Notes: a model not told the origin generated them from the letters alone. Shown: positions 1 through 30,200, counted from the first letter of the stretch. The stretch: DNA of 64,000 bases from Yuukianura sp. NJ FZ-2021 (GCA_046563655.1 CM102289.1:8618001-8682000), one strand, 5' to 3'. Numbers and translations are program-made.

Positions 1-383
1 ACGTTCAAACAACGTCAATCCTTATTTTATTTTCTCTTAATTTTCTTATCAACGTCAATTGTGACTTGTTTGCTGATGTAATCCAGTCCGTGTGAACACT
101 TATTTTTTCAAAACACTTTGCATCATATGCTAATTTGTGATAAAAAATATTGTGAAAATAACAAACATGAAGCAAGTGCGTCATTATTCCAATTTTTCTT
201 TGTTTAATTGCCCAAAACTGGTCAACTTTCTTTCTACTTTCTCCAGTTTTAAACTCCTCCAGCCGAACACACTTTTCCTCCGTTAAATTTGAAACAAACG
301 TTTCATAATTTCAAAATTTCTAGACTTTCATTGTTCCAAAATCCCAATTTTTTAAAAACTTCGTTTTTTAAAAAACTGACTTT

Positions 384-1790
384 ATGGAGAAAACGACACT
401 TGAGCATTGCCTTCCGGTATTAACTTTACACCGACTTTGTGGAATTCTTCCACTGAAACTTATCCGTGGCGATTCTGATGAATCGGACGTGGGAAAAACA
501 AGGGATGGACAAAAATTTGAAAAAGTCGCAGTAGCTGATGGGAAAAAATACTTCATTTTATCAGTCATTGCCTTTACATATTTGACTCTTCGTTTCTCCG
601 CTATTATATTTGCGTTTCTTCCGAAATATTTGGGCGGAAGATTTCATACTGTTGAGATCATTTGCTTATGCTACGCAATCTCCTATGCCACTAGCACTTT
701 TGTATTCTACTTCGTCTTTCGCATGAAAATTACCAAAGTTGTTAAATTTCTTAACAATTGGCATCAGTTGGAACTCGAAGTAATGAAATCAGATCCAGGT
801 TGAAATCAAGCAAAAAAAAACTTGTTTTTTTTAAATATTTATATCAAATTTTGAATTATATATTTATATTAATTTTTTATATTAGATATCAGTTTGTCTT
901 CAACTGGACTAAGTATGGCTCGCCGCTTACGCGTGATGGGTTTGCTGACTTCGCTAATACCAATTTCCGTTTTTGTACTAAAATCGGGCGGACTGGTGGA
1001 AGTGACCCATTCGTTCTGGATTTTTGATTTTCAAAATTTGGCGCCATCTTATGCCTCTACCATCATTTACTTTTTGACATGTCTAGAATCATTTGTTTTT
1101 GTTGAATTGGTTTCGTTCAGACTAGGGATTTTTGATGTCACATTTTTGGCTTTTCTAACAAGCTTTATCAAAATTTTGGAATCGTTGATTAACCTTGCCC
1201 ATGACGTTGGACATAACAGTACTCAAATTGTCATAAATGAATACATAGAAGAGGCAGGACATGAGCAAAAATCAAAACCCGAATCTGCACAGAAGTCGAA
1301 ATCTAGACTTGAGTACTTGGTTTGTACTTATGGATTGATGCTTGACTTGGTAACGACTTTTAATAGTACTTTCTCAAGTGTTGTTTTTAGTTTTAACATT
1401 TCAGCCATGATCAACATGTGTAGTTCAGGGTACGCTTGTGCCAGATTTTGGCGAGGAGCAAGCGCCAATGTGCTGGCGTTTTACTTTTGTGCAATATGTA
1501 TTTCTGCAGCTCGGTTTTACACAATGGTACTAATGATGGGCAAAGTCCATAGGTTGTCTAATACGCTAAAACGGGTGTTGCAGCAACACGTTTTAGTGAA
1601 CACAAAAAGCGGGTTTCTTGAACAAGGAAATTTGCCGGGCTCGGATCAAAATCAGATTGAAGATTTTCTGCAATGTTTCATCCCGTTGCAATTCTGGGCT
1701 GGCAAATTTTATGCCATTTCGTCGTCAACTATCCTCACAATATTTTCTGTTGCAGTTACAAACACCATCATGCTTTTGCAAATGTTTTAA
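384..1790 (+). CDS. Gustatory receptor-like 7TM chemoreceptor, array copy 1 (exons 384-798, 886-1790; ~439 aa)
   Basis: Two ORFs join in frame through a phase-1 GT..AG intron (CCAG|gttgaa ... attag|ATATC). Several hydrophobic helices. C-terminus FYAISSSTILTIFSVAVTNTIMLLQMF resembles the GR-family TM7 motif TYhhhhhQF. Paralogous to the four genes downstream. Confidence 0.85.
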
Positions 1791-1931
1791 AAAGTCAAGT
1801 TTTCATGAAACTCTAAAAAAAACACTGACTAAAAAAATAGAAGTAAATTGTAAATAGTAAATATTATACATAGAATAAAACTGAAATAAAGTCTATATTG
1901 GTGTTCAGTTTACAATTTTGTGTGTATGCTC

Positions 1932-2154
1932 CAAGGTTCGTAAACAAAAAATGTTTTGTCTACACCAGGTTGTCCTATAACTCGATGTTTTTCATTTGTT
2001 AAAAAATGAGGAAAACTTTTTTTTCATATGGTAGTTATTTTGTTGTAAAGCAATTGGAATTGGAGGACAGATTGTTTGAAGCAAAATTTTTGCAAATCCA
2101 GAGTTATTGGACAACCTGTTGTAGGAAGTACAATTCGGTTGTCAAGGAACCTTG
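1932..2154. mobile_element. Non-autonomous hAT-like MITE, family B
   Basis: Ends CAAGGTT...AACCTTG. Internal inverted repeat CTACACCAGGTTGTCCTATAACTC / GAGTTATTGGACAACCTGTTGTAG. Degenerate TSD GTATGCTC/GTATGTCG. Inverted copy at 3005-3221. Confidence 0.7.
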
Positions 2155-2562
2155 GTATGTCGTAAATACAGAGTCACGCTTTACACAACATCATCTATGA
2201 TACTCAATTAGCACAAAATTTCTTAATTGCTACAAAGTTTTAACGATTAATTAGCAAATTTTGTTAAATGTGTCACTGATGGAGTAACTGATTCTGTAAC
2301 TGGCGTTATCAGACTTGTCACCCTGTTTTGCAAAAAAAAGTTTTGCAGAAAATGTTTGCTCAAATTTTGCAACTGTATGTTAAGCATTAGGTAATGAGAG
2401 GTGGAAGTTGACACTTGTTTTGTCAAGCTTTAGAGATTGGACTAATTAAGTAATGTTTGATTTAGTTTTTTTTATGCTGTTGGCAATTCAGCTGAAATTT
2501 TTCAAATTCGGAGTTAGTTGAGACGTGGCAGCGGTTAGGTTGCAATATTTCACGTAGCTATA

Positions 2563-4078
2563 ATGGAAGGAAACAAATCAACGTTCGAGCACTGCATTCC
2601 TATTTTAAAGTTTCAAAAGTTTTGCGGGCTCATGGCGTTGCAATTTACCAACAGAATTTCTAATGAAGTAGTAGTCACTACTGGAAAAAAGTATAAAATT
2701 GTTTTTATCCTTGTCTGTTTGTACTGGATTTTGCGTTTTACCGCCACCGGCCTCTGTTTCTTTCCTAAATTACTAAAAACTGGCCGGTTAACGGAAACTA
2801 ACCTTGGCTACATTTATTCCGTGGCGTACGGTTTCTTGTCATTTTTGCTTGTCATACTTCCTCAGTTGAAAATTACGAAACTTGTGCAACTATTTAACAA
2901 CTGGCATAACTTGGAGCACAATTTCAGGCAATGGAAAGGAGGTAATTTCGAAATTTTTCCGAAAAAAAAATTCTAGAGAAACTTTCAAAACACTGAGTTT
3001 TTATCTAGGTTGCTTGACAACCGAATTGTAATTCCTACAACAGGGTGTCTAATAACTCAGGGCTTCCAAAAATCTTACCTCAAACTCTGCACCAATCTCA
3101 TCTACATTACATGCGAAAAAAATACCATAGAAAGGCAGATTTGCTATTTTCAAACAAATTTTAAAACTACCAGTTATTGGATAACCTGGTGTAGAAAAAG
3201 TTTTTTTGTTTACGAACCTTGGTTTTAATCATGTGTTTCTGGCAGGGCCGGATCGGCAACATGCAATTTCTACCACCACAAGAGCCATGATTTACAGCCT
3301 TGTATTGCTTCAACTTTCAACATACTTGCTTCCCGTGATGCTTTTTGTTTTAAAGCCTTCGGGGCTATTTGAAATGTTTCACTCCTTTTGGGCTTTTGGA
3401 TTTAAAAATTTGGCGCCATCATATGCAACAAGCGCCATTTACGTTTTAACATCTCTAGACACCTTCGCGTTTTTAGAATTTCCTTGGATTCCTGGATGCT
3501 TGGTTGACGTTGCGTTTTTGGTATTTCCATACAGCATTCTCAGAATTTTGGAAGAAATGAAGGAATCAAGTTACGAAACTGAAAAAGCGCAACACCGACC
3601 AACTCGTAGTATCAAGCACATGATTCGTCTGTATGGAGAAATACTTGAGACTACAGCAACATTTAACACCATTTTCTCCAGTATAGTATTCCTCTTGAAC
3701 GCTTATGTTGTAGTGAACATTTGCTTTACAGGTTTTGGTTTTCCTAGACTCTGGGGAACAGGGCATGGAAAAATCTTGATGTTGTATGGGGCAGTAGAGT
3801 TTGCACCGATTATTAGATTTTTTGCATTTATGATTCTAATGGGCAGAGTCCATTCGGCGTCAATTGATTTACATGACTCTTGGATGAGGGTTTTGAAATC
3901 TACGCGCGGAAATGAAGTGGTAAGCTGTTCAGACCAAAAGCATCTGGAACGTTTTCTTCAATTTTTTACGCCTGTACAGTTCTGGAGTGGGGAAGTATAC
4001 GCAATTTCTGCTTCAACTGTGCTTACAGTTCTGTCAGTAACCGTAACAAATACTATTATGTTATTGCAAATTTTCTAA
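2563..4078 (+). CDS. Gustatory receptor-like 7TM chemoreceptor, copy 2 (exons 2563-2941, 3246-4078; ~403 aa)
   Basis: Phase-1 intron GGAG|gtaatt ... ggcag|GGCCG restores the frame. Shares motifs LFNNWHNLE, HSFWAFGFKNLAPS and C-terminal VTNTIMLLQIF with its paralogs. Confidence 0.85.
3005..3221. mobile_element. hAT-like MITE family B inserted in the intron of GR copy 2
   Basis: Reverse-orientation homolog of 1932-2154. Flanked by GTTTTTAT/GTTTTAAT (7/8 TSD). Explains why this intron is 304 nt while the paralogs have 65-87 nt. Confidence 0.7.
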
Positions 4079-4590
4079 ACAAAAATTGAAATCAGCAGAA
4101 ATTGTATTGTACTTATATACATGTACATGTATAGTGTACATGCATATTTAGAATATACACATATGTAGTATGTAGTATGTATATTTAGTATGCATGTAGT
4201 ATGTATACGTATCATGTGTGTATATCTAAGCATATCTACATATATGTGGTTTCCTTCCTTCCTTTCATACCGTTTATCGTAAGTTAGATGACAAGTTGTA
4301 CTGGTGAAATCATAAGTTAGCAAATAGCACAAAAATAGTTATTGTGCAATATTGGTCCAACTTGTCAATCATTCGAAAAATTTGTCAAAATGCGCCGTGT
4401 AGATAATGGAGGCTTCACTTTCTTTTGAACACACTTCAAAACTTTCTAGTAAATAAAGTTGACTTTTTCGTTTTCACTTTCACCTCAACGTTAAATTAGT
4501 TTAGTGTTAAAACTCAACGCTGCTAAGAAGGAGTCTCCACGACAGTTTGTGCTCTAACATTCTTTTATTAAAAGGATTCTTTTTACAACA

Positions 4591-6037
4591 ATGAAATATA
4601 ACAAATCAATCCTAGAATACTGTATTTGGCTTTTAGCGATGCAGCGCAACGCTGGAATTCTGCCGCTGAAATTCATCTTCAGCTCTCCAATTAAACAGCG
4701 ACACGCTTGGCAAGAATCAGGAGCCAAAGGCAAGAAAATATTGAAGGCAGTTGCACTAGTTCGTGACAAAATATATTACATATATTCGGCTATTGTCAGA
4801 TCTTACTTTTTTGTGCGTTTTATGATCATGTGTGGTGTTGGTTTATGGAAAATTTGTGGAGATAAGTTTTCAGCTAAGAGTATCATTTTCTATACTACGT
4901 TTATGGTACTTGGAGCAATGAGCAGCCTACTACACATGACGCTTCATAGAAGATCAAACGAAATTGTCATACTTTTGAACAATTGGCGCAAACTGGAACA
5001 AGAAGTAGTGCTGTGGGTAGCAGGTATTACTAAATACTTTTAAAAAACAATCATTTATGTATAATTCTTTGTATTTTTACATTTTCAAAGGTTCGACAGC
5101 TAACACTGCTCCACTTTCTAGAAGTTTAGCAGAGAAGTCCATATCCAAACTTGGTCCATATTTATTCTGGAGTACACTTTTTGTTCAAGTGTTGAACCAT
5201 GTACTTCCATTCTTTAGTTTATGTATTTTTCAAATGGATTTTATAGTGTCCTCTGCTCACTCTTACTGGATCCTTGGTTTTCAAAATTTTGAAAATTCAT
5301 TTTCAACTACCATTATTTATGTACTAACTTCCATTGAAAGTGTCATTTTCTTTGAGCTCGCATGGATTTCCGTCGGAGTTCTTGATTTTTCCGTACTGAT
5401 AATTCCACGGAGTATTGAAAATTGGTTGCAAATATTGATCAATCATGGCTTGTCTTTTACTGAAATGCAATCTCATTCTCTAGAAATTTCAATCGTAGAC
5501 AAACGACTTCAGGGATTGTTTACGAAGAGAATTTCAGAAACAATTGCAAAGGAGTTCATGAAAATGATAGCCATTTACAAGGATTTTGCACAGCTAATAG
5601 AATGTTTCAACAAGATTTTTGCATATTTTGTGCTGTATGTCAAATGTTCTATACATATTACGATGTGCATGTGTCTTTATGCTATGATTAGATTCCCGAA
5701 CCAATGGACTGGGCACTTTGCGGTTGCTATATTTGGGGTTTTCATGTCTATGGCATACCGGTTTTATATTATGATGAATTCAATGGGTAACGTTTATTTA
5801 AGGGCTAATGCGGTCAAAGAATTTTTTGTGAGAATTTTGTTGGACGATTTCCAAACAAACACATTGGAACAGAAATTTGTATCAGCGTGGAATCAAAGGC
5901 AAATTGAAAAATTTGTTCAGTTCTTCACTCCTTTGGAATTTTGGACTGGAGCATTTTACAGTATCAATTCTGGTACCATTCTTACGTTTTGGTCGGTCAT
6001 TGTTACCAATTGTATTATTTTGTTACAAGCATTCTAA
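4591..6037 (+). CDS. Gustatory receptor-like 7TM chemoreceptor, copy 3 (exons 4591-5023, 5091-6037; ~459 aa)
   Basis: Phase-1 intron GCAG|gtatta ... tcaaag|GTTCG. Motifs LLNNWRKLE, HSYWILGFQNF and C-terminal VTNCIILLQAF. Confidence 0.85.
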
Positions 6038-6570
6038 ACATATAGCTACATATACTTCCCTACATGTACTATATATACATATATAGCAATTATACGGCAT
6101 ATACACATAGTATATGTAAATATATATTGCAATTATACGGTATATACATATTAGTATAATATATGTCACAGTACTGTAAATTGTACTGTACATGTAGTAA
6201 TTTGTATACAGTGCATTGAATATAGTTGTATGTGGTACACGTTAACTGTCAGCATTTTGTTAGCTGAGTAAATCTGAATAAACATTGCGTTACAATATTG
6301 CAACATTTACCTCACATACAAATGTCCTAATTGGCATTTGTAAATTTTTTGACATCAGTTACTCCCGTTAAGATAGTTTCGAAATTGTGTTTACAAAAAT
6401 GTTGAAATCTCCTATGTCCATCACAGTATGTACCGATTCGATATGTAAGCAGGACAAGACATACATAAGTACCGAGAGAAAAACTAATTTCTCTACATTC
6501 AGGTTTTACACTTGAGAAGAACAAGATCCTAATATTTCATTACTAATAAAGGTTTATCACCTTGCCCAAT

Positions 6571-7919
6571 ATGCACAAAACATCACTTGAGTGTTGTACT
6601 ACTTTGTTGGCGTGGTTACGCCTAACCGGAGTCTTCCCGGTAGACGTTCTGTACGCCCCAACGAAACACAAAGGCGGTAGGGTTAAACAAATTTTGAAAG
6701 AATTTCAACCTTCTGGAACATGTTTTCAAACACTTTGCTATTTCACCTATTCTTACCTTGTTCTTCGTAACCTGGTTGTACTTGGCCGTTTTTTGTACAC
6801 CGTTTGGTTTGGAAAGGTTGAGCCTGCTAAAGCACTAATACTCTTCTTGGTTAACATTTTTCTTTGTGGGAATATGGTGGCAATACTCATTGTTCACTGG
6901 AATCGTAAGGACATTGTTTCATTTCTTAACCAATGGCACTCACTCGAGCAAAATTTCATAGAGTGGAATAGAGGTAACATGAATACACAAATTTACATTT
7001 AGGTTGCTTGTAGAGTGAAATTGTTGAATGTTTTATAGAATTTCCATTTGATGTATTACGTGGTAATGGTACAGACATTTCCACGTACAGAAGAACTCTT
7101 CTACGCCGCATGCGCGTACTGCATTTCCTCTGTTTTCTTATTCCAATTCCACTAATGTTGGTAAAGTCACATTGGGTTATATTTATTCTACACTCTTACT
7201 ACATTCTCGGACTTCAAAATTTGCCGCCATCAATTTCGACTACCGCAATTTACACTTTGACTTCAATTGAAACATTGCTATATCTCGAATTAATTTGGGT
7301 CATTTTTCAGCTGATTGACATTTTGTTTTGGATTTTTGTGTCGATAATTTTAAATTTACTGAAATTGATGGTTTCATCGTTAGACCAAATTTATGTTTAC
7401 GAAAGGGTGCAAAAATCAGAACAAACAGCAAAGATCCACCGAATTGTCAGTTTGTATAGACAAATAGTTGGTATTACAGCGACGTTTAACAAGTTATTTT
7501 CTAGTATTGTGTTATTTTTTAATATATTTGCAACTATGTTTATGTGTGGAGCTGTGTACGGTTTTGCACGATATTTGATGGCTCAGCCGTTTGATGCTAT
7601 TGCAGTATATGCCTTTCTGGTATGCATAATTAACATCCGGTTTGCTACAACGATGACATTGATGGGCAGAGTACATACTGTATCGATTACACTGAAGAAT
7701 TGCTGGATGCAGGCGTTGGTACGCCATTTTGAATTTGAAAATTTGGAATCTAGAGTATACAGTGACTTTGACTCTTCAAACCGTCTTCAAAACTTTCTGA
7801 AATTTTTCACACCTATTCAATTCTGGAGTGGAAGATTTTATGGAGTTTCATCTTCAACCTTTCTGTCTCTTTTTTCAGTTGTGGTTACAAATAGTATTAT
7901 GCTTTTGCAAATGTTCTGA
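6571..7919 (+). CDS. Gustatory receptor-like 7TM chemoreceptor, copy 4 (exons 6571-6973, 7039-7919; ~427 aa)
   Basis: Phase-1 intron AGAG|gtaaca ... ttatag|AATTT (an in-frame alternative acceptor ends at 7074). Motifs FLNQWHSLE, HSYYILGLQNLPPS and VTNSIMLLQMF. Confidence 0.85.
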
Positions 7920-8617
7920 ATTAAAATTTTGGTTTCTTTCCAAACTTTAGCAATTGTGATCTTCAAAATTTTAAGTCTAGTTGTTGAAAGTTGAGTCATC
8001 AATTGGTATTCGCTAGCACAATTACAATTGAATGTTGTTTATGTATAGTCAATACAGTCGAATAAAGATCCCACCTTCAACCAGACTTTCATAATTGACA
8101 TAATTTTATTAAAGGTACATTTGTATTTGCTTTTTAACTGAAATTCACTGAAATCTTTGCACTTTTTACAATTACTGTTTACTGGATATGATGCAGTAGC
8201 AGGCGCTTATTTGCTTTTGAAGCTGACTTTTTCTTATTTTTGACCTCCGAGAATCTTCTTGAGGTCAGATGCTAACCTTGCAATTGGAAGTTAGACTTGG
8301 ACAATTCAATATTAAAAAATCACTTTTAAATAATGTTAATAAACTTTCTTTTGTTTTAAAAACAAACAGCCATCTCCACCTCGACATTGCGGTACCTTAC
8401 TCTACTGCGGTACGGGTACCATAATTTTAATGAAATCGAAGGCCATTTTTTCTTTTACCTAATTACCGGCAAACAGTGCCGAAAATTTTATTACGCTTTG
8501 TGCTACAGGATTATGATTAAAATGAAACTTCAAAAAGGCTGCACACTTTCCGAATTAACCCATTTGCAAATTTTAAAAAACCACTTTCTTGTCTGAAGAA
8601 TTTATTCAAACTTTGCA

Positions 8618-9146
8618 ATGCACAGCGTTATTTTTCCGACAGTTTTTGTTCTTTCGTTATGCCTAACTTTGTGTTTGGCTGAGAGTGCATTTTTCGAAAT
8701 GAAGGAAGGCCCAGACCTATTTGTGTTTGAATTAGAAGATGACCGTAAAATCCAATTGGCACGAGATTTAGTTGCTGGAAAGAACAAAGCACCACCACAT
8801 GTAATAGGAAAAATTAACAAAACACAGCAACCCTATAATCCAAAATGGAGTTTTTATTTAGGTAAGTTGTAGCTATAAAATTGTTTGTAATACGAATTGT
8901 TAATTGACAAAAATAAGCCGCATTTGAAATGATCTTCTTTAACAAATAGAAACTCAGAGTTCATAATGATTTTTTAAAGCAGATCCGGACACGATTAGTT
9001 TTTTTGAACATGCCATCGAAGTTTGCGATGCAAGTTTGCGTTATGTTGAAAATCACTTGGATGAAGTATGTGGAGCATTCCTTCCAGGATGTATTTGGTG
9101 TCCATGGACTTCCACTGTTGTCAGAGAAGTTACCATTTTAAATTAA
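8618..9146 (+). CDS. Secreted BP74-N-terminal-domain (CAM-BP64-like) protein, two exons (8618-8861, 8983-9146; 135 aa)
   Basis: Splicing TTAG|gtaagt ... agcag|ATCCG gives [135 protein letters not shown]. The motifs YNPxWSxxLDPxTIxFF, AIEVCDA and GAFLPGxxWCPW match from memory the BP74-related proteins of actinobacteria/proteobacteria and Dictyostelium. Exon 2 is absent from the ORF track. Confidence 0.85.
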
Positions 9147-9768
9147 ATTAAAAAAAAGAAAATCAAAAGAAAGCATAAATATGTTCATGTTCAAAACAAA
9201 CACGCCAAGCACAAAAGTTGGCAATTTCAACGATCAAAATTTTAAGTCTAATTGAAAATTATCAATAGTTGATATTTGCTTAGCTACAATGAATGTTGTT
9301 TACGTAGTCAATACGGCCAAATAAAATATTCCATTTCAACATAACTTCCAAAATTTCTACACTTCTCAAAATTTACACTAATTAAGCTGAAATTTTGTGA
9401 TCAATCACCATGGCCGAAGCGGTTCAGTAGTTTTCCAAAAGTTAACAATTAAAACCAATTAATCTAACATCATAATTTATTCCTCGCACACTCAACTATA
9501 ATCCATTTTAATTGCAATTAAGCTATAAACGATATACAAATTTTTGCCGTATCGCACTGTAAGTTATTAGAAGTACACAAACTACGACTTCATTATATTA
9601 CTGATTACTAGTTTTCTCAAGTTTATAAAATAGGTTTTCGATACTTTGTCTGTCATTTGCTGAAACCAGCCGTTGGAAAACTAAGAATTTAGTAAAACAA
9701 AACTTGCATTTTTGAATATTTGAATTTGAAAATTTGCTTTGAAGAAAGATCAATTAAAAAAATCAATT

Positions 9769-11153
9769 ATGACAAAGTCAACTGTCGAGACCTTTAGAGG
9801 TATGTTTACATTGATAAAGTTTAGTGGAACTTTTCCGATAAACTTTACGTATGCTATACCCAAACAAGAACATTGGACGACAACAAAATTTACACAAGAA
9901 CCAAAAAAAGTCTTTGCAGGAGTGGAATTTGGCGGCAGAAATTTTCAAATTTTTTCGTACATCGTTCCATTCTACATCACCCTGCGAGCTATCGCTGGTA
10001 CGGTTAGATGTACGCAGTATCTCTTGCTGGAAAAGGTGCAAAACGTGAGTTTAATTTTAAGTGCTATCCAATCTGCGTTAGTGCTGGGCACGCTCCTCGC
10101 GTTGCGAAAAAATGCGAAAGTTGTTTTGACATTTCTAAATGACTGGCATCGTTTTGAGCAACAATTGCTCACTTGGATCTCAGGTTAGTCGTTAAAGTTT
10201 TGCAAAGTATTTAGTTTTTGCTGTTTTTCGTTTAATCTGACTAGTTTATTTTTAATCTAGAGCGGGATATCAATTTTCATATTCCACGAATCGTCCCGCG
10301 TCAATTTTACATTTTGGAACTACTGGCCGGAGGCGGGGTTATACCAGTCATATTTTTTTCTCTACAAGAAAGTGACCTCGTCACAGCGCTACACTCCTAT
10401 TGGGTGCTTGGATTTCAAAATTTGGAACCATCAGTTGGGAAATCCATTGTCTACATTTTGACTTCCCTGGAAACAATACTTTTCATCGAATCGTTCTGGA
10501 TTACAATTGCTTTGGTTGATTTTATATTTCTCGCTTATCCATACAGTATCGAAAAATGCTTGAAATCATTGACACAGGTCAAAGTAAGCGCAGATCAACA
10601 AATTATGTCTGAATTTCGGGTATTTCCAAAAGTCCCAATTTCAGAAATTCAGAAACTCCAAACTGAAGTGAATGACCTCACTGAACGAATTGGGCTATAC
10701 TGGGATATAATTGACCTTACTGAATCTTTTAACAAAAATTTTTCAACTTTCATTTTGAGTTGGAGTGCTGCTAGTTTGCTTTGCCTTTGCTATTCTGTGT
10801 ATGGGTTAGTACGATTCTGGAAAGACGTGTCCACTAATTCCTGGATTGTTTGCGTCGCTTCTGCAGTGGCAATGGGAAGTAGATTTTTTGGTACAATGAT
10901 GTTGATGGGTAGAGTGCACAAAACTTCACTGGAAGTGCAAAAATCCTGGACCAGGGTACTCGTAAATAACAAATTTTATGGTAAAAACCAAATTTTCGGT
11001 AATCAGAATCAGAAACAACTTGAGAATTTTCTGCAGTTGTTCATTCCGGTGCAATTTACGAGTGGTCAGTTCTATGGAATTTCATCTTCGACTGTTCTCA
11101 CATTCCTCTCAGTTGTTGTCACAAATTGCATCGTTGTACTGCAAATATTTTAA
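9769..11153 (+). CDS. Gustatory receptor-like 7TM chemoreceptor, copy 5 (exons 9769-10183, 10261-11153; ~435 aa)
   Basis: Phase-1 intron TCAG|gttagt ... atctag|AGCGG. Motifs FLNDWHRFE, HSYWVLGFQNLEPS and VTNCIVVLQIF. Confidence 0.85.
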
Positions 11154-12296: not shown

Positions 12297-15200
12297 TCAC
12301 ACCATAGTAATATTTCGTCTCTTAGAATTAACTGAAGTGAGACTACCCTGGACATTGGGATTGTATTGCATGTGACTATTGTTATTGGGTATCCGTTGAG
12401 GGAAGTTAGACAAAATGTTATTTGGAGCTCCACGGTAAGATGGAGGAAGGTTAGGGTAAGTTTCAATTGTTCTGTAGTTGTCGTCTACACAGGAGTCATA
12501 GTCTGTTTGACCACCTTTGGCCGATTTGAGAGTTTTGTCACTGGAACAACTTTCGTAGTCGGTCAGAGTTGCTCTGCGACCGGACATGCTGTCCAAGCTC
12601 GTCTTTCTATTATTTTCACTAATAGAACGAAATGACCTAGAAGATTCGGGTGACTCGTTGAGATGATGATGTGTCATCTGATGGTGACTGACTGGTGGAC
12701 CACCACCGTTAGTAGCTTTTTCATAGTAGTTGCTGTAATTAGTTGCGTGAGGATGGCCTTGTTGTGACTGACCGTAAATACTTTGGCGTTTTTCATGTTC
12801 CTGTAAAAGTTCACTGGCTGACCAGTGGATTGGAGCCTTGGTGTCAGAAATTGTTGAAATTTTGGTTTCAGTTGATCCCATTGTCTTCCCGCCTTTCCTT
12901 CGGCAGTAACAGAGCAGAATGAGCGCCAAGATCAAAATTAAACAAAGTAGGGACCCGCCCACAATGAGCCAGATTGCGGTAGACGACAAGCCGGGATCGC
13001 CTACTTGCTCTTCCGTGTTTCTCGACGGAGATTGACCGCCTTGTTCAAATTCTTCTCTCAACGGGAACAGTTTAACCTCGACGACATTCGACAATTGACC
13101 GGCATTTTGAAAACGGTCGACTGCTCCAACTTGGAAAAAGTGCCAACCGTAAGAAGTCATACTGAAACTGATGTTAACAAGCGTCCCGGCTTGAAATGTT
13201 TCTGTGATGGTCTTCATGTAGACGAAAGTAGTGTCTCTGGAGCGACTGGTGTAGATGATATATTTTTCTGGTAAGCCTTGGTCCATGTCGTCTCCAGGCG
13301 AAGTAAATTCGAGCGTGACCTCGGTGAGGTAGTGGCCCTTGACCCTTAGATTCCCGATCCTTGAAGGGTTGTAGGTTCCTGGCGGGCGGGCACTGAGGAC
13401 TTTGATCATGTAGGATGAAATTATCCGTTCGTTGTATGGCATGGGCTTAAGGGCGGGTGATGAAGCGCTTAAGCCCGGGAACAGATCGCTTCCACAACAT
13501 GAAGGGATAATGACGGATGATGGTTTTGTCAAGCGTGAGGAAGATGATAGGAGTTGGGCTGAAGGAGAGAAAGCCTGTTGCAAAGGCTGGCTCAGATACC
13601 GGGCTCCGTATGGAGAAGTTGTAACTTTGACGGTGATATCCAGTAGGCGAGTCTGGAACGCTGACGGTGGGATTACCTGGTGAGAAAAAAAAATTGTTAG
13701 AAAAAGTTGGAAAATATTTTGGTTGAAGTAAACTTTAGCTAGAGTCATTTGTACCCTCCAACTCTGTACCCGCTATGATGTAAATATTTCAATGTCACTA
13801 CTATCGTTTTTGTAACAAAAGTAAAACGTAGAATTAATTTTTTTAAAAGAATTTTTAGGTACTAAATAGTACACGAGTTGGCAACATTGTAAGCGTTTTC
13901 GCAGTATCAGAGGCACTCTACGTTATGAAGTATGCCATGATTAACTTAAATTTGTTAAGGTATGTTGCGTTTATATTCTGTTTTGTTTAAAAATGGCTTT
14001 GTTATGCCGGGGTATTAAAATTTGTTAGGTTGAACTATTTAATTTGAAAATTTATTAAATTTATTTATTAAATTTAAACATAAAAAAGTTAGGTCAGAAT
14101 TTAATTGTTGATGTCGTTAGATAATTTTGCTGCGACATATTCTAAAAAAGCTGTACTTTTTTTAAGTAGAGGAGGCAAGATTAAAAAATCAAAACAAAAG
14201 CGATGTTGCCAACTTGTTTTATGAGGAGGGCAGGCTGGTAGGGGTACAAGATCAGGGCATTCTGCACCTGAATGAACCATAAAGTGAAAGTGTATGAAGT
14301 GAACTTACGTATCTCGAGTAAATTCCATCTCCGCGTGTCAAATCCGGATCTGAAAAAAGAAAACTCAGAGTTGCACGTCAAAAGTATCACAAAAAAAAGA
14401 AAGCAAAACCTCATCTTTGGGTGCACAACCCCGAAATTGAGTGTCAATTTTGTAGCACACGGGAGAGAGTTAGAGCGGGAAACATGGGGGAAGAAAGTTG
14501 GTGGGAAAGCAAATTATTTTTTTTACTTTCATGACAGGCAGAAAGTCTTTCTCCGTCATCTACGAACTTTCAAGTGCCAAAGGAAAAGTTTCCCATTTTG
14601 AATTTGCATAAGTTCTAAAGGAAACTCTGAACAGAGACAGAGAGCAGGAAAAAGATAGAAATCAAAGAAATTCAAAATTCAAATATTCCATTTCACAAAA
14701 GTTTTCATTTTTAGTTTCATTTCAAGTTTCAACCAACTTCAAATAGAATTGGAAATCAATGGAAAGAATAATGGAAAGTGACAGGAGAGGGCAAAGGAGA
14801 AAACTTTTTAGGGAACCAGGCAATTGGCATTGAGATTAACAAAAAAGAGAAGCAAAAGATTATAACTACTGAAACTTTGACAAAAAAAAAAGTAATTTTT
14901 GGTTCGAAAATTTTATTTGGGAGGGAAATTCAAAAAAAGTGCAGTGGTGAAAGTACGGTGAAAGTGAGGCTATACTGCGTAAGAATATCATAAAACTTTT
15001 TTTTAGTATTTGAATGGCGGGAAAGAATCAAAAATGAACAAGACTGAAAAACTTTATCGTTTTCAACGACGAGCCGAAGTAAAGACGGCGTCATTCAATT
15101 TAAGATAAACTTTTCCAAACCTTCCCGCGCCCGTTTTTTGAACTTCCGCATTTTCCTGCTTGACTTTTACAAAATTTCCGTTCTTTGACTCTATACCGGT

Positions 15201-18200: not shown

Positions 18201-21200
18201 AAGTTGTTCCAACTCTGTAGTGTTTGGAAATTAGAGCAGAAGTCACCTTACCAGAGTGGGCCATTTGGTAGAAATCCCTTTGGTAAAGAACTGTTGGATG
18301 TCCATGATGGCATTGACGAGCTGAATGTAGGTTGACATGTGTGTCATGGATCCAACTCCGGATTCCCGGATAGAGTAATGTGGACTGCCCGTTGCTTGGG
18401 ACAGAGCAGAGATCTTGCCATCTCCAATTGACGGGTATTCAATAGTGGCAATTGACACATCTTCTTGTTTCAGAAGTTGAAGAGATGTCTCCAAATCCAT
18501 TTGGGAAATTGTGCCTTGGCTGATGAGGATAATGGCTGACCCGGCTGCTCTCTGCCCATTTGATTTCAGCATCTATACAAAGAGAAATGTTAGTGAAACC
18601 AAGGTTTGCTGACTTTGATTTTCTTTAACAGGTTGGGTAATACCTCATGTTTTTTCGATTTTGCAAAAAAAAAAAGTAGCTTTTCATTTCGGGGCATCGT
18701 AGTCATAACTATACAGCTATTTTTTTTTTAATTTTGCATACGAATTGGTACCATTTTGATACAATTGATACCATTGGTATTTTTGGATTGGTGCTAAATT
18801 GGTACCAATTTTTTTTCCATTTTTTTGTCAACAAGCGAGGTAGTACTCAACCTGTTAAAGAAAATTAACTTTCGTTGTCAAGCAACCTTGAGTGAAAGTG
18901 ACGATTGAGATAGAAGGGAAAGCGCTTAAGCACTGCATTGGAAGAGGGAGTGAAATCGCTTAAGCGTTGGAAGGAGACGGGAAAGCGCTGGAAAAAAAAT
19001 TGTGTCCACGATTCCTTTCGTTTTCGCTACTTTCCTACCATGGATTTGTTGAAATAAGACACACAGAGTGTATATTAAGTCATAAATTGTATTAGGACTT
19101 TTTGAAATGGGAGCAGAGAGTATCATTTCACACTTCCAAAGCTTTAACTCCTAAAGTTCAATTGGATTTTGGCGGGGGAAGCATAGTGCATGGTCCATTT
19201 TCTACAAGGGTCACCGTACATTCACCACTCGTCCTCAGAAATTAAACTTTGTATCGTCTGGGGAAAGTTTTTTCAAGGACTTTCTCTTTTCCCGCCTTCC
19301 CTGCTTCTATTTTTTGTCAAAAACATAAAATAACCCTCTTCTACAGAAAAAGAGAAAGTGTTTGAGCTTTTTCCTGTTCCAGAGAGTTGTTTATTTGGTT
19401 AGGATAGGCTTGTGACTCATAGTTCAATCAAGGGATGAAGGGAGGGGAGCCCTTTACTCTCCCCCTCATACTTTCCAGAAATTAATATACTTTGCACTAC
19501 TACTGTAGGTTGTTAGGGTTGAAGCTCATTTCCTAAGGTTAGGCTAACTTTCTCCCCCCATGGTTCCTATTATTGCTTTACTCAATTCCGCACTTTCGCC
19601 TGGGGACACTTCCCTTCTTGACATCAAACTACATTAGAATTTGACAAACTTTAGTTCAAACTAATTAGTGGATTTGCGCCTCATCCTCGTAACTTAGGCA
19701 GATTGGAATACTTGAAACTGCTGCCAAGTTTTCCATGTCACATGTCGTATTTAAAAAACTAAATTTTTAAAACGTCTGATTTCTGACATTTCGTTTCACA
19801 TTTTACGTTTTCAAACTTTGACATCTACAGCCACTTCCGTAGAATTCAAAAGTTGAAACTCTTGTTACTTGCTCCCTGTGAGACACTTTTAGTAAAAAGT
19901 TATAATTATGGGGGGATTTCCCCTCCCTACGTTCCACCCCCACCTACAATTACTGTGATTAATCTCACTTTGACGTGCAAGAGTTTTTGGAAGGAGAAGG
20001 TGTGCTTTCACTTTTCATGTTTTTAGGTAAAAACTGAGAACAAAAGTCGTTAGTTCCACAAAAATTATGAAAAGTTTTGAAAAAAAGGGGGAGTTTTGAA
20101 ATTTTTGAAATGTCAAGGGGAATCAAAACAAGTTTAGAAAAAAGTTGTGGAGTTATGCGCAGAAGCAAAGTCTTTTCCACTGCGCAGTCATTAGGCAGTC
20201 CGAATTTATGACCATGAACTTATTGGACTGAAGCCACCGCTTTGTTTCTTGATTTATGACAATTTATTTTTGTAACGGTTTGGCGGGAGAAAAAAAAGCG
20301 GGAGATTTGAACCAATTTCGAATCAAGCCAAGTTCAGGGTCTAAAAAAATGTTTTTTTTTGAAAGTGAGAAGCGTTTGGTACAAGGTTTTCTGACTTTTA
20401 ATTCTCTTTAACGGGTTGGATAATACCTCATGTTTTTCCTATTTTGCAAAAAAAGTATCTTTTCCATTTCCGGGCATCGTATACGACGACTATAGTGATT
20501 GGTACCAATTTTTTGGATTGGTACTAAATTGGTACGGATTTTTTGTTTTTAGCGTTTTTTGTCAACCAGCGAGGTAGTAGCCAACCTGTTAAAGAAAATT
20601 AACTTATCGTTGTCAAGGAACCTTGGTTTGCTAGCAGTTGACCCTCTCTCGGTGGCAACTGCCAGGGGAAAATGAACTCCCGGGTGACATGTTTGGTTTG
20701 AAATGAAGGCGCGGGAGGGTTTGAAAAGACAATAAAGGGGGGCATAATGAGATTATGTGATTGCATTACATTGATTGCATGGGTGAGCCCTTTAAGAAGG
20801 GACACTCCGCCATTGCTCGTCTCAATGTTGGGGTAGTTTGGTAACTTTTCCGCCAGAGTGCCCCGGAGGTTTTCATCCAGCGTCGTCATGTTGGCCAGAG
20901 TGCGTATGTCCGTGCTCACAGTGACTAATCCAATTTGTGTTCCGGACGGGAGGTCGTACTTGATGAATTTTCGGATGGCCAGTTTCAGGTATTTCCATAC
21001 GTCCTGGAGACACAAAAAAATGGCGGGAATTAAGTTTCATTAAGTTCGGACGCTGTAAGCTAAATCCGAAAAAGTTCATTTGAACAAAACCGCGCGAACA
21101 AACAAAACTGTGATCCCTGCACTGTGTAAATACATCTTTGGTTTTAGCTCAAACCCAGACGTGAGTCATGTGACATGACCTTAGGTTCTAATGACAACTT

Positions 21201-27200: not shown

Positions 27201-30200
27201 TAACTTTTAGGACCAGGGTTGAATTTAATACAAACAAAACCATCACATTTTCTATTCCGTTACAAAGTTTTAAATGAGCCTCAGCTCTGGGCTTAAGTGT
27301 AGCATTAGGTCAGGTTTTATGCAGACAGGGGGGAGTACTTAGCCTGTCCTTAATATCCTCCTGTGCCTTAAAGTACACACAGCCAAGGCTCCCAACTTTA
27401 ATATCAAAGAGACACACTAACCTTAGCTCAAGCTAGGCCTACCTTTTCAAATTTTGAATTTTCCCGCTCCTTTCAGAGGGGGAGAACGTTTTTCATTTGG
27501 ATTTTTTGAAAATGAAAGTTCAAATGCCGCGGTGCTAAAAACCTGAAAATTTCATGCCACCGAAACAAGTCGTCGCGCGGGAAAGTTTTGAATTTGAGTC
27601 ATGTCAATTCCCCCCTCTCTGTAAAATGTTGAATCGTGCCAGCTCCAACTGTGAACCTGGATTGATTATGACAGTATCCATGGGATCCAGGATGCCTAAC
27701 ACAACCTTTGTAACCCTCATACTACACTGACATTGAACTTTGAAGAGCAACCCTAACTTGAAAACTTACCCTAACATTTCTCTATGTTTAACTTATGGTT
27801 CAGAGACGCACTTCCAGGAAGGGAGGGGAACAATTCAGAAAACTTCAATTGAAAATGTTGTTAATTTTTTTACCTGCAACAGACGCTGGGCCATGTCCTG
27901 TTTCATTGTACTGCATCAAGTAGTTGTAACCTACTGAAACGTAGTCTCCCGCCTCCCCACATCCGACTGACTGTTGTGTAAACGGTGCGTGACCAAAGAG
28001 CGGATGTTCCCCAACAATCCGGAACTGAGCCTTGGCTACCGTAGATCTGCTCGTAGGGGCCGCTGGTAAGTAGCGACCACACGCCCGAGAGTCCCACGTT
28101 GGCGGAAGAACAATGAGGACGCGATGAAAGTAGATTCTACGAGAAGTAGCTTCGTAGAGATACGAAGATGCGGATGAAAAGATCTCCTGAAAAGACAAAA
28201 AAGAGAGATTTAGGATCAGGTTTGCAGAAAAAATCGATTTCGGATTTTGCAGAAATTTTTTTTCATGTTCTTGTATAGAGAAACTTGCTTTCTCTTTTGG
28301 ATTTTGACCTCTTTCACCTCTTGTTCTGAATCAAATCTCATCACTCCTCATTCTTATAAATCAAAATTTGAGTTTTTTCCAGAAATCCTTTTTTGACTTT
28401 GATAGAGGAGCAGAATCCAACAGGAGTTTGAGAATCTCAGAGAAAGTTTTTTGTTACATTTTTACTACTTTGTGTTTTGAAAAAAAAAGACTTTCTCCGG
28501 GAAAGAAAAAGATTTTGGTAGATTTACTTTCCAAATGGAGGAAATAAGGAAGTTCAAAAAATGTCACATTAGAAGAGCAAAAAATTGCCCAAATGAAAAC
28601 GAATAACCTAATGTAGGCTATAAACCTAACAAGTTAGGTTAAGGTTAGGCTTCAGCAGTAGAATTGGTGGAGAAAGCATTAATTAATTATTATCCATAAC
28701 TGTCCTAATTCTTAACTTCCACCACCAGAGGTCGTTAATCATCCAAATGACTTTCAGTGGCAGCACTTTCACCAAACCACAACAACCTTGCTCCGCTGAA
28801 CTAACATGTTCTCACAACTTTGTGTGAACCACTTTCTACTTTTGCAACTATGTTAGTACCACAAAAGTTTTTGCAAACTAATGCTACCATGTACACTACT
28901 GTGTGTACTTTACGGTAGATAAGCAAAAAGCACTTCCTCTTACTTTTCCATTTATTACTTCCCGTGTCCCTAATCTAAAGCTCTACTTTCTAGTTTGTCC
29001 AAAAATTTAAAACGAAACTTCGGAAATGCGCGGGAGAACCGTTTAAATTTAAATTATGGAACATAAACATAGCATGGTACATTCCGTACTAAGCATGGTT
29101 AGGTGCACATATCTAAATTACAATCTCGTTGCTTAAATGATTCTTCAGAAACCACGCCTGCTTACAATCGGATGTAACAAGTTGACACTGACGAAGAACC
29201 AAAATTACAAAGCTCAACTTTTTCAAAAGGTGATTGAAAATTTTTTGCTTGTTCATAATTTTGAAGTTCTTTGAATGCTATAACCTTAGTTATGCTTCAC
29301 GGTTTAATCAATACAGTCGTAATTAAGATTTACCGCTAGAGGTGAATGAGATGCATATTTTAGGGATTCGCACAGCATGGGAGATTTTAAGACGAAAAGA
29401 TATGGCGGTGGGTTCGATCCAATCAATCCTTGTGCAAAAAATTTATCTTTGAATTTCAATAACAATCAAAGGAAAGTGTAAAATGATTTGCAAAAAAATT
29501 CATCAACACACCTTCATTTTCACAGCTAATCAACTTTTCACATCACATAACTAGAACTAATTATCCTTGGTCCAAATTATAATACGTACAAGGTGTAATT
29601 AAACATAACTTAAGTTCTAATTACCATATTAACATAAAATTCAAACGTATTAACAAAAAATTGATACATATTAAAGTGAAATTTACACATTTTAAACTGT
29701 TTTGCTAAATATAATAGCTGATTTTAAGTGTACAAAAACATTTTTATATTGAAGATTTAAATTGGAAATTTCTTGATACAAAAAAAAATTTTTTTGAACT
29801 TTTTTAAAACAAAAAATAAACTTTTTCGTTTTGTTTTTAATTTAGGGTTTGTACAAAGCTGGAAAAGGTGGATGATGCTCATTAAATTTACGTGAGTTAC
29901 AACTGTAATGTTTTTTATTACTAATTGTTCTGAAAACATACCCTAACTCTATACACATGTTTACATAATATAATATTATAACATATTTTTTTTCATATGG
30001 TAAAATACACACTGGAGAAGGGAGAGAAAGCGATACACCCTTGTTTTTTGAATTTGAAGCATCCTTTTTTGAAAGTATTTTTGAAGAGCATCTGAAAGCC
30101 TAGCATAACAGATTTCTAATAATTTCCAACCCTGTGTAACTCCATACTCCCAAAAACAGTTTTTGTTTTTCTTCTAATGCATTTCAATGACTGCCACATA

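What the first reader, a model, noticed from the sequence alone, without database searches (positions are those of the whole stretch)
8618..9146. Intron-containing BP74-domain gene of apparent microbial origin embedded in the chemoreceptor array
Seen in sequence: a clean two-exon ORF with a signal peptide, four cysteines in the mature C-terminal half and a 121-nt GT-AG intron, flanked by animal genes. Knowledge (recalled, not searched): the motif series FVFxL-ARxxxxG-HVxGKI-YNPxWS-LDPxTIxFF-AIEVCDA-HLDE-GAFLPG-WCPW is the BP74-related/'calmodulin-binding protein' domain of soil bacteria such as Streptomyces and of Dictyostelium, and is not a standard animal family. Inference: a horizontally acquired, domesticated (intron-gained) secreted protein of unknown function. 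Its position among GR genes raises the possibility of a co-expressed perireceptor or ligand-binding role.
Basis: partly seen in the sequence, partly recalled or inferred. Interest (0 to 1): 0.75.

Follow-up and report, generated by a model that had tools for sequence, protein, structure and literature searches.

The report
Microbe-derived secreted gene in arthropod genome
A small, intact two-exon gene for a secreted protein of a family otherwise seen in bacteria, moulds and slime moulds sits between taste-receptor genes of an arthropod, most likely a gene captured from a microbe whose donor and function remain unknown.

Summary
Exon 1 (8618-8861), a 121-nt GTAAGT...CAG phase-1 intron (8862-8982) and exon 2 (8983-9146) give a 135-aa protein. 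Both exons hit Pfam BP74_N at adjoining profile positions, 2-61 and 63-112, E 1.7e-16 and 1.2e-23. The protein keeps 39 of 39 near-invariant family residues.

The gene lies in the spacer between two arthropod gustatory-receptor genes. Its base composition is host-like. One 14-kb DNA contig of a public run spans it together with its flanks.

Every homologue whose organism I could see is bacterial, archaeal, mucoralean or dictyostelid, and none is an animal. Horizontal acquisition is therefore the best reading (about 0.75).

The donor cannot be named. Three trees gave three different sisters, and AU tests reject none of them. "Intron gained" therefore holds only if the donor was a bacterium.

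No RNA data were available, and a homologue's confident model matches no solved fold. A chemosensory role is untested. This is a new member of a known kind, of moderate interest.

The parts
8618..8861 (+). Exon 1: start codon, 21-residue hydrophobic leader (8618-8680) and the first 60 residues of the BP74_N domain. It ends on the first base of codon 82.
   Evidence: Pfam BP74_N E 1.7e-16, residues 23-81 on profile 2-61. Hydropathy of the leader.
8862..8982 (+). Spliceosomal-type intron, 121 nt, GTAAGT...TTTTTAAAGCAG, phase 1, 26% GC.
   Evidence: The exon-1 frame runs into a stop at 8870-8872. Splicing joins profile positions 61 and 63. No RNA evidence was available.
8983..9146 (+). Exon 2: the C-terminal half of the BP74_N domain with four cysteines (C96, C111, C118, C121) and the stop codon TAA at 9144-9146.
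   Evidence: Pfam BP74_N E 1.2e-23, profile 63-112. Up to 82% identity to bacterial proteins over about 50 residues.
9234..9355 (+). Copy of the 3' flank of the upstream receptor gene. It holds the only AATAAA (9320) in 9147-9729, 174 nt after the BP74 stop, and is the candidate polyadenylation region of the BP74 gene.
   Evidence: blastn 73.5% over 136 nt to 7963-8096. Repeat families D1, D2 and D4. Alignment and AATAAA positions. Its use as a poly(A) site is inference.
7963..8096 (+). The other copy of that repeat, downstream of the stop (7917-7919) of the upstream gustatory-receptor gene. AATAAA at 8061.
6550..7919 (+). Upstream neighbour: two-exon gustatory-receptor gene (ORFs 6550-7002 and 7014-7919) ending ...LLQMF-stop.
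   Evidence: Pfam 7tm_7 E 1e-6. C-terminus read. Paralogy to the other four copies at 23-40% amino-acid identity over all pairs listed (32-40% for the long exons).
9730..11153 (+). Downstream neighbour: two-exon gustatory-receptor paralogue (ORFs 9730-10188 and 10245-11153).
   Evidence: blastp to the other copies, E 1e-45 to 1e-60 for the long exon. No Pfam hit on its own at E 0.01.

Best explanation
This is a real, probably functional arthropod gene that encodes a secreted single-domain protein of the BP74_N family. It was most likely acquired by horizontal transfer from a microbe and has since been fully naturalised. Its base composition is now that of the host. It has a spliceosomal intron inside the domain and an N-terminal secretion leader. 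It sits in the spacer between two gustatory-receptor genes, followed by a duplicate of its neighbour's 3' flank that carries an AATAAA.

Proposed working, all inferred. The 21-residue leader directs the protein into the secretory pathway and is removed after Ala21. The 114-residue mature domain folds as in the microbial relatives, with a beta-rich N-terminal half and a cysteine-bearing C-terminal half. C96-C121 would be the universal cysteine pair and C111-C118 an optional second pair. The domain presents the invariant polar residues (His61, Glu94, Asp97, His106, Asp108, Glu109 in window numbering), which most likely hold a metal ion or a small conserved ligand. It would therefore act outside the cell with the biochemical activity inherited from its microbial ancestor, as the secreted, matrix-located dictyostelid relative CmbC/CaM-BP15 does.

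The position in the receptor array is most likely incidental. The donor lineage cannot be named from these data; it may have been an actinobacterium-like bacterium or a mucoralean or dictyostelid-like eukaryote.
For: Gene and family:
- Both exons pass the BP74_N gathering score at adjoining profile positions.
- The spliced protein aligns end to end with 257 family proteins, at best 64% identity over 111 residues.
- It keeps 39 of 39 columns that are at least 90% conserved in 56 family members, whose own median is 39 and minimum 32.

Host residence:
- 7tm_7 receptor genes lie on both sides on the same strand.
- CDS GC is 37.7% and GC3 28.7%, against 35.8% for the window and about 60-75% for the bacterial loci tabulated (58-59% for two more).
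- One 14,172-nt contig of run X1 covers 7900-9800 in one piece with 12 differences.
- A run under another organism label and study (X5) holds 8483-8752 with 12 differences and 1 gap in 270 nt.

Distribution:
- Of 102 relatives, 39 carry an organism name: 29 bacteria, 3 Mucorales, 7 dictyostelids and 0 animals.
- The 30 cluster look-ups add Kitasatospora, Nostoc, Egibacteraceae, a nanoarchaeon, Mucor, Rhizopus/Gilbertella, Cavenderia and Heterostelium, and again no animal.
- The Atlas clusters that carry PF23621 are 93-100% bacterial.
- A word search with exon 1 found nothing among proteins of 44-142 residues.

Constraint:
- Variants in the reads keep the frame. They are a 6-nt insertion inside codon 29 and a -1/+1 pair within codon 91.
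- Several variants change residues towards the family consensus: Y80H, N105E, V110A.

Cysteine pairing:
- In 225 family domains the four positions read CCCC in 120, C--C in 101 and anything else in 4.

Secretion in a relative:
- CmbC was found in conditioned buffer and slime-sheath matrix of Dictyostelium (passages of PMC7079120). cmbC is named as CaM-BP15 in a passage of PMC2920877.
Against: - The phylogeny does not show nesting in any donor group. A quick tree of 226 rows puts the protein beside secreted Nonomuraea proteins (SH-aLRT 75). A careful tree of 76 rows puts it beside the soil actinobacterial P0163 (96/93). A careful tree of 67 rows puts it beside Mucor hiemalis plus Cavenderia (96/89).
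- Constrained trees for the first two placements have slightly higher likelihood than the free tree (p-AU 0.548 and 0.501). A clade of all eukaryotic rows plus the query is not rejected either (p-AU 0.165).
- The end branch is long, 0.66-0.96 against medians of 0.17-0.42.
- The absence of animals rests on names. 63 of the 102 rows, most of the 150 rows, and the 204 of 354 hits that were not listed have no visible organism.
- No eukaryotic genome collection could be searched, and the window's own genome is not held.
- There is no expression evidence. No RNA run was listed.
- One read variant changes a nearly invariant proline (P83A).
- The proposed binding site, the disulfides and leader cleavage were not tested. 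The model was made for homologue P0163, not for the window protein.
Confidence: 0.75

Rival explanations
1. Ancient eukaryotic gene inherited vertically. On this view a BP74_N gene was present in the common ancestor of Amoebozoa, Fungi and animals, was lost almost everywhere, and survives in dictyostelids, Mucorales and this arthropod lineage. The signal peptide and possibly the intron would be ancestral.
For: One careful tree places the protein inside the clade of Mucorales and dictyostelids, beside Mucor hiemalis and Cavenderia (96/89). A single clade of the query with all 12 eukaryotic rows is not rejected (p-AU 0.165). Like those proteins, it has an N-terminal leader and the four-cysteine form.
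Against: No animal appears among any named relative, which would demand very many independent losses. Within the 'eukaryotic' clade the order does not follow the species tree: Cavenderia groups with Mucor hiemalis, and a cyanobacterial Hassallia protein is nested inside. That clade itself therefore looks transfer-prone. Other taxon samples move the query to actinobacteria.
Confidence: 0.12
2. Transferred but no longer working: an HGT-derived relic that is intact by chance, not transcribed or not translated, and without a role.
For: No RNA evidence could be obtained. The end branch is long. One variant alters a nearly invariant proline.
Against: The reading frame is open over 135 codons in AT-rich DNA. 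It has canonical splice sites and 39 of 39 near-invariant residues. Indel variants keep the frame, and a second, about 9% divergent form is also in frame over the parts seen. Composition is fully host-like, so the sequence has been resident long enough for an unconstrained frame to decay.
Confidence: 0.1
3. Perireceptor protein. The secreted BP74_N protein is co-expressed with the surrounding gustatory receptors and handles or presents ligands in the sensillum lymph.
For: Only position and orientation support this: same strand, in the spacer of a five-gene receptor array, followed by a copy of the neighbour's 3' flank. The protein also has a secretion leader.
Against: There are no expression data. 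The family has no known link to chemoreception. The receptor paralogues are old (23-40% amino-acid identity over all pairs listed, 32-40% for the long exons), whereas the flanking repeat is 73.5% identical at DNA level, so the gene arrived long after the array formed. Neighbourhood alone is weak evidence in animal genomes.
Confidence: 0.06
4. Contaminant or chimeric assembly: microbial DNA joined by error to arthropod sequence.
For: The family is otherwise microbial.
Against: GC is 37.7%, against about 60-75% in the bacterial loci tabulated (58-59% for two more). There is a GT-AG intron inside the domain. Receptor genes lie within 700 bp on either side. One 14-kb contig of another data set spans gene and flanks, though it may come from the same sample as the assembly. 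Part of the gene is also present under a second organism label in another study.
Confidence: 0.02

Closest known systems
Pfam PF23621 BP74_N, 'BP74-related protein' / 'calmodulin-binding protein' of bacteria (for example the soil actinobacterial protein P0163, and Nocardia, Nonomuraea, Kitasatospora, Stigmatella and Archangium proteins)
   Same: Same single domain over its whole length, at 50-64% identity. All 39 near-invariant residues are shared, and the four-cysteine form matches 120 of 225 domains.
   Different: Most bacterial forms are about 115 residues with no leader, start at the first strand of the domain, have no intron, and lie in DNA of about 60-75% GC in the loci (58-59% for two more). 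The window gene has a leader, an intron and 38% GC. Some bacterial forms are fused to hemopexin repeats or other modules.
Dictyostelid CmbC / CaM-BP15 and its paralogues (Dictyostelium, Cavenderia, Heterostelium, Polysphondylium)
   Same: Small proteins of 130-141 residues with a leader and one BP74_N domain, 54-61% identical to the window protein. CmbC is reported as secreted and present in the slime-sheath matrix (passages of PMC7079120).
   Different: They come from a different kingdom. Calmodulin binding is labelled 'putative' in the passages I read and was not tested here. Whether their genes have an intron at the same place could not be checked.
Mucorales BP74_N proteins (Mucor hiemalis, M. 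lusitanicus, M. plumbeus, Parasitella, Rhizopus, Gilbertella)
   Same: Secreted-type small proteins of 132-160 residues. M. hiemalis P0174 aligns from the leader to the end at 55% over 131 residues, and is 62% identical over the 112 tree columns.
   Different: They are fungal, some carry C-terminal tails, and no function is reported in anything I could search.
Documented bacterium- or fungus-to-arthropod gene transfers in general (recalled background; only titles and abstracts were seen in the listing)
   Same: The same hallmarks apply: a microbial family, flanking host genes, host-like composition, a gained eukaryotic gene structure and a secretion leader.
   Different: In the full-text searches, no paper links BP74, CaM-BP15 or PF23621 to an animal or to gene transfer.

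Membership tests
BP74_N (Pfam PF23621) | Match to the family HMM above the curated gathering score (27 bits) over most of the 114-position profile | tested here: met
   Exon 1 scores 60.5 bits on profile 2-61 and exon 2 scores 83.5 bits on profile 63-112.
BP74_N (Pfam PF23621) | Nearly invariant residues of the family (HV.G, YN, P.T..FF, AIEVCD, Y...HLDE, GAFLPG, CPW and so on) | tested here: met
   39 of 39 columns that are at least 90% conserved in 56 members are kept.
BP74_N (Pfam PF23621) | Cysteine pattern: universal first and fourth cysteine, with the second and third present or absent together | tested here: met
   The window protein reads CCCC. The family reads CCCC in 120, C--C in 101 and other patterns in 4 of 225 domains.
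Calmodulin-binding proteins (the name carried by CaM-BP15/CmbC and many database entries) | Demonstrated binding of calmodulin | not testable with these tools
   Only the label 'putative' was seen, in passages of PMC2920877 and PMC7079120. No complex prediction was run.
Horizontally acquired animal gene | Physical linkage to undoubted host genes, in data independent of the assembly | tested here: met
   7tm_7 genes lie on both sides. A 14,172-nt contig of run X1 spans 7900-9800. This may be the same sample as the assembly, so independence is partial.
Horizontally acquired animal gene | Family absent from other animals | tested here: inconclusive
   There are 0 animals among the 39 named rows of 102 and among the names returned by 30 cluster look-ups. 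Most hits are unnamed, 204 of 354 hits were not listed, and no animal genome collection could be searched.
Horizontally acquired animal gene | Phylogenetic nesting inside a donor group with support | tested here: inconclusive
   Three trees gave three sisters. AU p values were 0.548, 0.501 and 0.165 for three rival placements.
Horizontally acquired animal gene | Adaptation to the host: composition, intron, expression signals | tested here: met
   GC is 37.7% against 35.8% for the window. There is a GT-AG intron. AATAAA lies 174 nt after the stop, in a copy of the neighbour's flank. Transcription itself was not tested.
Expressed functional gene | Spliced transcript | not testable with these tools
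   No RNA run was listed for this stretch, and the four runs laid were DNA contigs.

The most novel reading that the evidence does not exclude
An arthropod lineage captured a microbial BP74_N gene, gave it a leader, an intron and its neighbour's 3' end, and recruited it as a secreted factor that works together with the surrounding gustatory-receptor genes. It would be a perireceptor or ligand-handling protein of non-animal origin, and the first animal member of the family.
Probability: 0.06. Interest if true: 0.8.

Novelty: new member of a known kind. Interest (0 to 1): 0.45.

Why it matters
Gene capture from microbes by arthropods is well documented, so the kind of event is not new. This case is unusually clean. 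The gene is small and intact, with a leader, an intron through the middle of a conserved domain, and host genes within 700 bp on both sides. In everything I could see, the family has no animal member and no established function.

The C-terminal 50 residues are up to 82% identical between an arthropod and bacteria. This points to a strongly constrained activity that nobody has defined, and a confident model of a homologue has no solved structural relative. An animal copy under selection offers a genetic handle on that activity. The duplicated 3' flank suggests how a foreign gene can obtain end-processing signals from a neighbour.

Tried and rejected
- RNA support: the look-up of sequencing runs listed no RNA holder, so the splice junction could not be tested. 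The four runs laid were DNA contigs. X5 has no cover over 8796-9307, which says nothing either way.
- Host identity: no whole genome is held. A search with the CLCA-like ORF 27845-28330(-) scored nothing among 277 candidates. The host is therefore known only as an arthropod.
- Earlier notes of the scan: one call failed and four returned nothing.
- Exon 1 word search, 44-142 aa: no candidate.
- Function by structure: there was no PDB sequence match for homologue P0163, best E 0.59. Foldseek against PDB gave a best E of 0.77. VIA-align against 48,161 chains gave a best Z of 3.2 with none at 5 or above; the top rows are OB-fold-like proteins over model residues 1-75, at noise level. NCBIfam gave no family for 4 of 4 proteins.
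- Vector search: the viral-contig scan found 8 loci at 39-48% identity to P0163, and the plasmid collection held 5 records, all large replicons of Rhizobium, Nonomuraea and Streptomyces. None is close to the window gene, so no vector can be proposed.
- Receptor remnant in the spacer 7920-9729: tblastn with 10 receptor ORFs gave nothing better than E 0.075. The idea that the gene replaced a receptor copy was dropped.
- Other copies in the window: none (tblastn).
- Literature: full-text searches for BP74, CaM-BP15, BP74-related, 'BP74 N-terminal', PF23621, CaMBP15 and cmbC gave only two relevant Dictyostelium papers, of which I read passages only. Supplements were not opened.
- The spliced protein was not given to the structure, complex or remote search tools. 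Homologue P0163 and the single exons were used instead, so there is no model of the window protein itself.

Full report
**1. The observation**

Reading 8300-9500 and the stop-to-stop ORF list shows an ATG at 8618, the first in its frame after a stop at 8594-8596. The frame stays open to 8872. A script that cut the window by coordinates gave these parts:
- exon 1 at 8618-8861;
- donor GTAAGT at 8862;
- an intron of 121 nt ending TTTTTAAAGCAG at 8982;
- exon 2 at 8983-9146;
- a CDS of 408 nt with one terminal stop, that is 135 residues.

The intron is phase 1. Unspliced, the frame stops at 8870-8872. Cysteines stand at 15 and 19 in the leader and at 96, 111, 118 and 121.

**2. It is not chance**

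Against Pfam, exon 1 alone matches BP74_N (PF23621) with E 1.7e-16 and 60.5 bits, residues 23-81 on profile positions 2-61. Exon 2 alone matches with E 1.2e-23 and 83.5 bits, on profile positions 63-112. The gathering score is 27 bits. Position 62 is the split codon, so the proposed splice restores an uninterrupted domain. This is the strongest available evidence for the intron, since no RNA data could be had.

**3. The surroundings**

ORFs at 873-1790, 3185-4078 and 7014-7919 match 7tm_7, the insect-type chemosensory receptor family. The Atlas places 3185-4075 among arthropod gustatory-receptor clusters at 0.96.

There are five two-exon receptor genes on the + strand between 372 and 11153. 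They are 23-40% identical to one another in protein over all pairs listed, 32-40% for the long exons. Each ends inside its long ORF with ...LLQ(M/I)F-stop. The BP74 gene therefore lies in the spacer between the stop of the fourth receptor gene (7919) and the start of the fifth (about 9730), on the same strand. No receptor remnant is detectable in that spacer (best E 0.075), and the window holds no second BP74 copy.

Further along, on the - strand, lie exons of a CLCA/VWA-type gene.

**4. Resident, not contaminant**

The CDS has 37.7% GC and 28.7% GC3, and the intron has 26% GC. The window has 35.8% GC, and the receptor exons have 33-40% GC (GC3 33-39%). The bacterial loci that carry relatives have about 60-75% GC in the 16 tabulated, with two more at 58-59%.

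In public DNA runs under one organism label, a 14,172-nt contig of X1 covers 7900-9800 in one piece with 12 differences. It may come from the sample behind the assembly, so it is only partly independent.

A run under a second organism label and a different study (X5) holds 8483-8752, that is the 5' flank and the first 135 nt of exon 1, with 12 differences and one gap in 270 nt.

**5. Who else has the family**

- phmmer with exon 2 against 1.84 billion representatives gave 354 proteins at E up to 0.001 and 155 at up to 1e-10. The best 150 were listed, with identity up to 78%.
- The word-indexed search with exon 2 (proteins of 94-2000 residues) gave 102 relatives out of 103 candidates.
- Of those 102, 39 rows carry an organism name. 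Twenty-nine are bacteria (Actinomycetota such as Kitasatospora, Streptomyces, Nonomuraea, Nocardia, Herbidospora, Nocardiopsis and Kineosporia; Myxococcota; Cyanobacteriota; Chloroflexota; Alphaproteobacteria). Three are Mucorales and seven are dictyostelids. None is an animal.
- Thirty cluster look-ups, chosen among the best hits, the tree neighbours and the most AT-type sequences, added Nostoc, Egibacteraceae, a nanoarchaeon, Mucor plumbeus, Rhizopus/Gilbertella, Cavenderia (named CaM-BP15) and Heterostelium. Again none is an animal.
- Atlas clusters carrying PF23621 are 93-100% bacterial.

The limits of this evidence are plain. Sixty-three of the 102 rows and most of the 150 have no visible organism. 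A further 204 of the 354 hits were not listed. No animal genome collection could be searched.

**6. Constraint**

The spliced protein aligns end to end with family members, at best 64% over 111 residues with P0163, 55% over 131 residues with Mucor hiemalis, and 61% over 114 residues with Dictyostelium. In a 56-member alignment, 39 columns are at least 90% conserved. The window protein keeps all 39; the members themselves have a median of 39 and a minimum of 32.

The read data show a second form about 9% different (36 differences and 8 gaps in 416 nt). Its indels keep the frame: a 6-nt insertion inside codon 29 and a -1/+1 pair within codon 91.

Among the listed substitutions, three are synonymous (codons 7, 22, 73) and six codons change: S78N, Y80H, P83A, E90D, N105E and V110A. 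Of these, Y80H, N105E and V110A move towards the family consensus, while P83A touches a nearly invariant proline. Only the best-supported differences were listed (106 were not shown), so no dN/dS can be given. Whether the second form is an allele or a paralogue is open.

**7. Where it came from**

The tree does not say. Three analyses gave three answers:
- 226 rows by 115 columns, quick method: the query sits beside secreted 143-residue Nonomuraea proteins (SH-aLRT 75, next node 92).
- 76 rows, careful method: it sits beside P0163 (96/93).
- 67 rows, with some long rows removed and actinobacterial and metagenome relatives of P0163 added: it sits beside Mucor hiemalis plus Cavenderia (96/89), inside a group of Mucorales, dictyostelids and one cyanobacterial pair.

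On the 67-row data, the AU tests gave these results:
- Holding the query with the P0163 cluster gives a likelihood 2.78 units higher than the free tree (p-AU 0.548).
- Holding it with the Nonomuraea group gives 1.05 units higher (p-AU 0.501).
- Holding it with all 12 eukaryotic rows costs 24.8 units but is not rejected (p-AU 0.165).

The bootstraps had not settled in either careful run, and the query's end branch is long (0.66-0.96).

P0163 itself is actinobacterial. Its 2,540-nt soil-metagenome contig has 65-76% GC, a GerE/LuxR-type regulator on one side, and on the other side an ORF that I read as ABC/UvrA-like from its motifs. Pfam gave that ORF only a sub-threshold nSTAND1 hit. The nearest genomic relatives of P0163 are Streptoalloteichus (68%) and Nocardia (59-65%).

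The honest statement is that the donor is unresolved. It was either an actinobacterium-like bacterium or a mucoralean or dictyostelid-like eukaryote. 'Intron gained' and 'leader gained' hold only in the bacterial case. Most bacterial forms start exactly at the first strand and have neither feature. One unnamed Logan protein (P0152) ends ...GAFLPG followed by unrelated residues. That looks like read-through into an intron at another position in some other eukaryote (this is inference).

**8. How it got its ends**

A stretch just after the upstream receptor gene (7963-8096) recurs just after the BP74 gene (9234-9355). The two copies are 73.5% identical over 136 nt (115 of 178 alignment columns; repeat families D1, D2 and D4). 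It occurs nowhere else in the window.

Each copy holds the only AATAAA of its interval, at 8061 (142 nt after the receptor stop) and at 9320 (174 nt after the BP74 stop). The window average is 0.77 AATAAA per kb on this strand. I infer that the roughly 1.27-kb unit carrying the BP74 gene is bounded by a duplication of the neighbour's 3' flank, and that the gene uses the second copy for 3'-end formation.

The repeat is far more similar than the receptor paralogues are to each other. The event is therefore younger than the array.

**9. What the protein does**

Nothing here is established. The closest studied relative is dictyostelid CmbC. [quoted passage not shown] Passages of the review PMC7079120 report it in conditioned buffer and in the slime-sheath matrix, so it is secreted. 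I read passages only.

An AlphaFold model of the homologue P0163, built on the 58-row alignment, is confident (mean pLDDT 90.5, pTM 0.84). It shows four strands and a helix in the first half, and a short strand (67-69), one helix and a final strand in the second half. It has no convincing solved relative: the best Foldseek E is 0.77, and the best VIA Z is 3.2, for OB-like folds over residues 1-75. There is no PDB match by sequence either.

Across 225 domains, the first and fourth cysteines are almost universal, and the second and third are present or absent together (CCCC 120, C--C 101, other 4). This is what two separate pairs would give. Disulfides are an inference, and many bacterial forms lack a leader.

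The invariant His, Glu and Asp residues (HV.G, AIEVCD, HLDE) suggest a metal or small-ligand site; this too is inference.

In 3 of 8 bacterial loci examined (L002, L004, L006, all of one actinobacterial subgroup), the adjacent gene encodes a MauE-type membrane protein fused to a thioredoxin-like domain. This is a weak hint of thiol-redox chemistry.

My committed reading is a secreted, disulfide-stabilised binding module that keeps its ancestral microbial activity outside the cell. I give that specific mechanism about 0.3.

**10. Comparison and verdict**

Membership of BP74_N is met on every testable criterion. Calmodulin binding cannot be tested here.

As a horizontally acquired gene, it meets the criteria of linkage, host adaptation and presence in further DNA data. 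The criterion of absence from other animals is met only as far as names go. The criterion of phylogenetic nesting is inconclusive.

Full-text searches found no paper that connects this family with animals or gene transfer.

The transfer reading is the best one (0.75), with vertical patchy descent (0.12) as the main rival. The chemosensory idea is untested (0.06). This is a new member of a known kind of event, of moderate interest.

Noticed in passing
window 7963-8096 and 9234-9355: A direct repeat of about 130 nt (73.5% identical) brackets the BP74 gene. Each copy carries the only AATAAA after the stop of the gene before it (8061 and 9320). It occurs nowhere else in the 64 kb.
   Followed up: partly
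window 8530-9123 (reads of runs X2 and X3): A second form of the gene, about 9-10% different, is present in runs of the same sample. It has a 6-nt in-frame insertion in codon 29 and residue changes towards the family consensus (H91M by a -1/+1 pair, N105E, V110A). Whether it is an allele or a paralogue elsewhere in the genome is not known.
   Followed up: partly
window 372-11153 (+): An array of five two-exon gustatory-receptor genes, each with exons of about 145 and 300 residues, spaced about 2.0-2.2 kb apart except for the 3.2-kb interval that holds the BP74 gene. The paralogues are only 23-40% identical in protein (32-40% for the long exons).
   Followed up: partly
window 12297-13772 (-): A 491-residue open frame with no Pfam family. 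The only hit is sub-threshold, MLANA, E 0.0034.
   Followed up: no
window 20599-21036 and 27845-28330 (-): Exons of a CLCA-type gene (CLCA N-terminal domain E 2.4e-14, plus a VWA exon). A protein search with the CLCA exon found no relative at E 1e-5.
   Followed up: no
family alignment of 225 domains: The second and third cysteines of BP74_N are present or absent together in 221 of 225 domains. The first and fourth are nearly universal. This suggests two separate cysteine pairs.
   Followed up: yes
L002 1862-2896, L004 1694-2719, L006 1492-2814: In three actinobacterial loci the gene next to the BP74-related gene encodes a MauE domain fused to an AhpC/TSA-thioredoxin-like domain. It is absent from the other five loci examined.
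   Followed up: partly
protein P0152 (Logan, 108 aa, contig of 5,526 nt): A BP74_N protein that breaks off after GAFLPG into unrelated residues. It looks like read-through into an intron at a different position, so some other unidentified eukaryote may also carry an intron-bearing copy.
   Followed up: no
proteins P0007, P0012, P0022, P0231: BP74_N occurs fused to other modules. P0007 and P0169 carry hemopexin repeats (PF00045). P0231 carries PF25549 and PF01345. P0012 and P0022 have cysteine-rich stretches that look Kazal-like by eye (not tested).
   Followed up: no
L049-L056 (IMG/VR) and hits H1-H5 (plasmid collection): The family turns up on 8 viral-collection contigs (39-48% identical to P0163) and on 5 large plasmid or chromid records of Rhizobium, Nonomuraea and Streptomyces. 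None is close to the window gene.
   Followed up: no
trees: Within the 'eukaryotic' BP74_N group the branching does not follow the species tree. Cavenderia groups with Mucor hiemalis, and a cyanobacterial Hassallia protein plus P0210 is nested among Dictyostelium proteins. The family may have moved between microbes repeatedly.
   Followed up: partly
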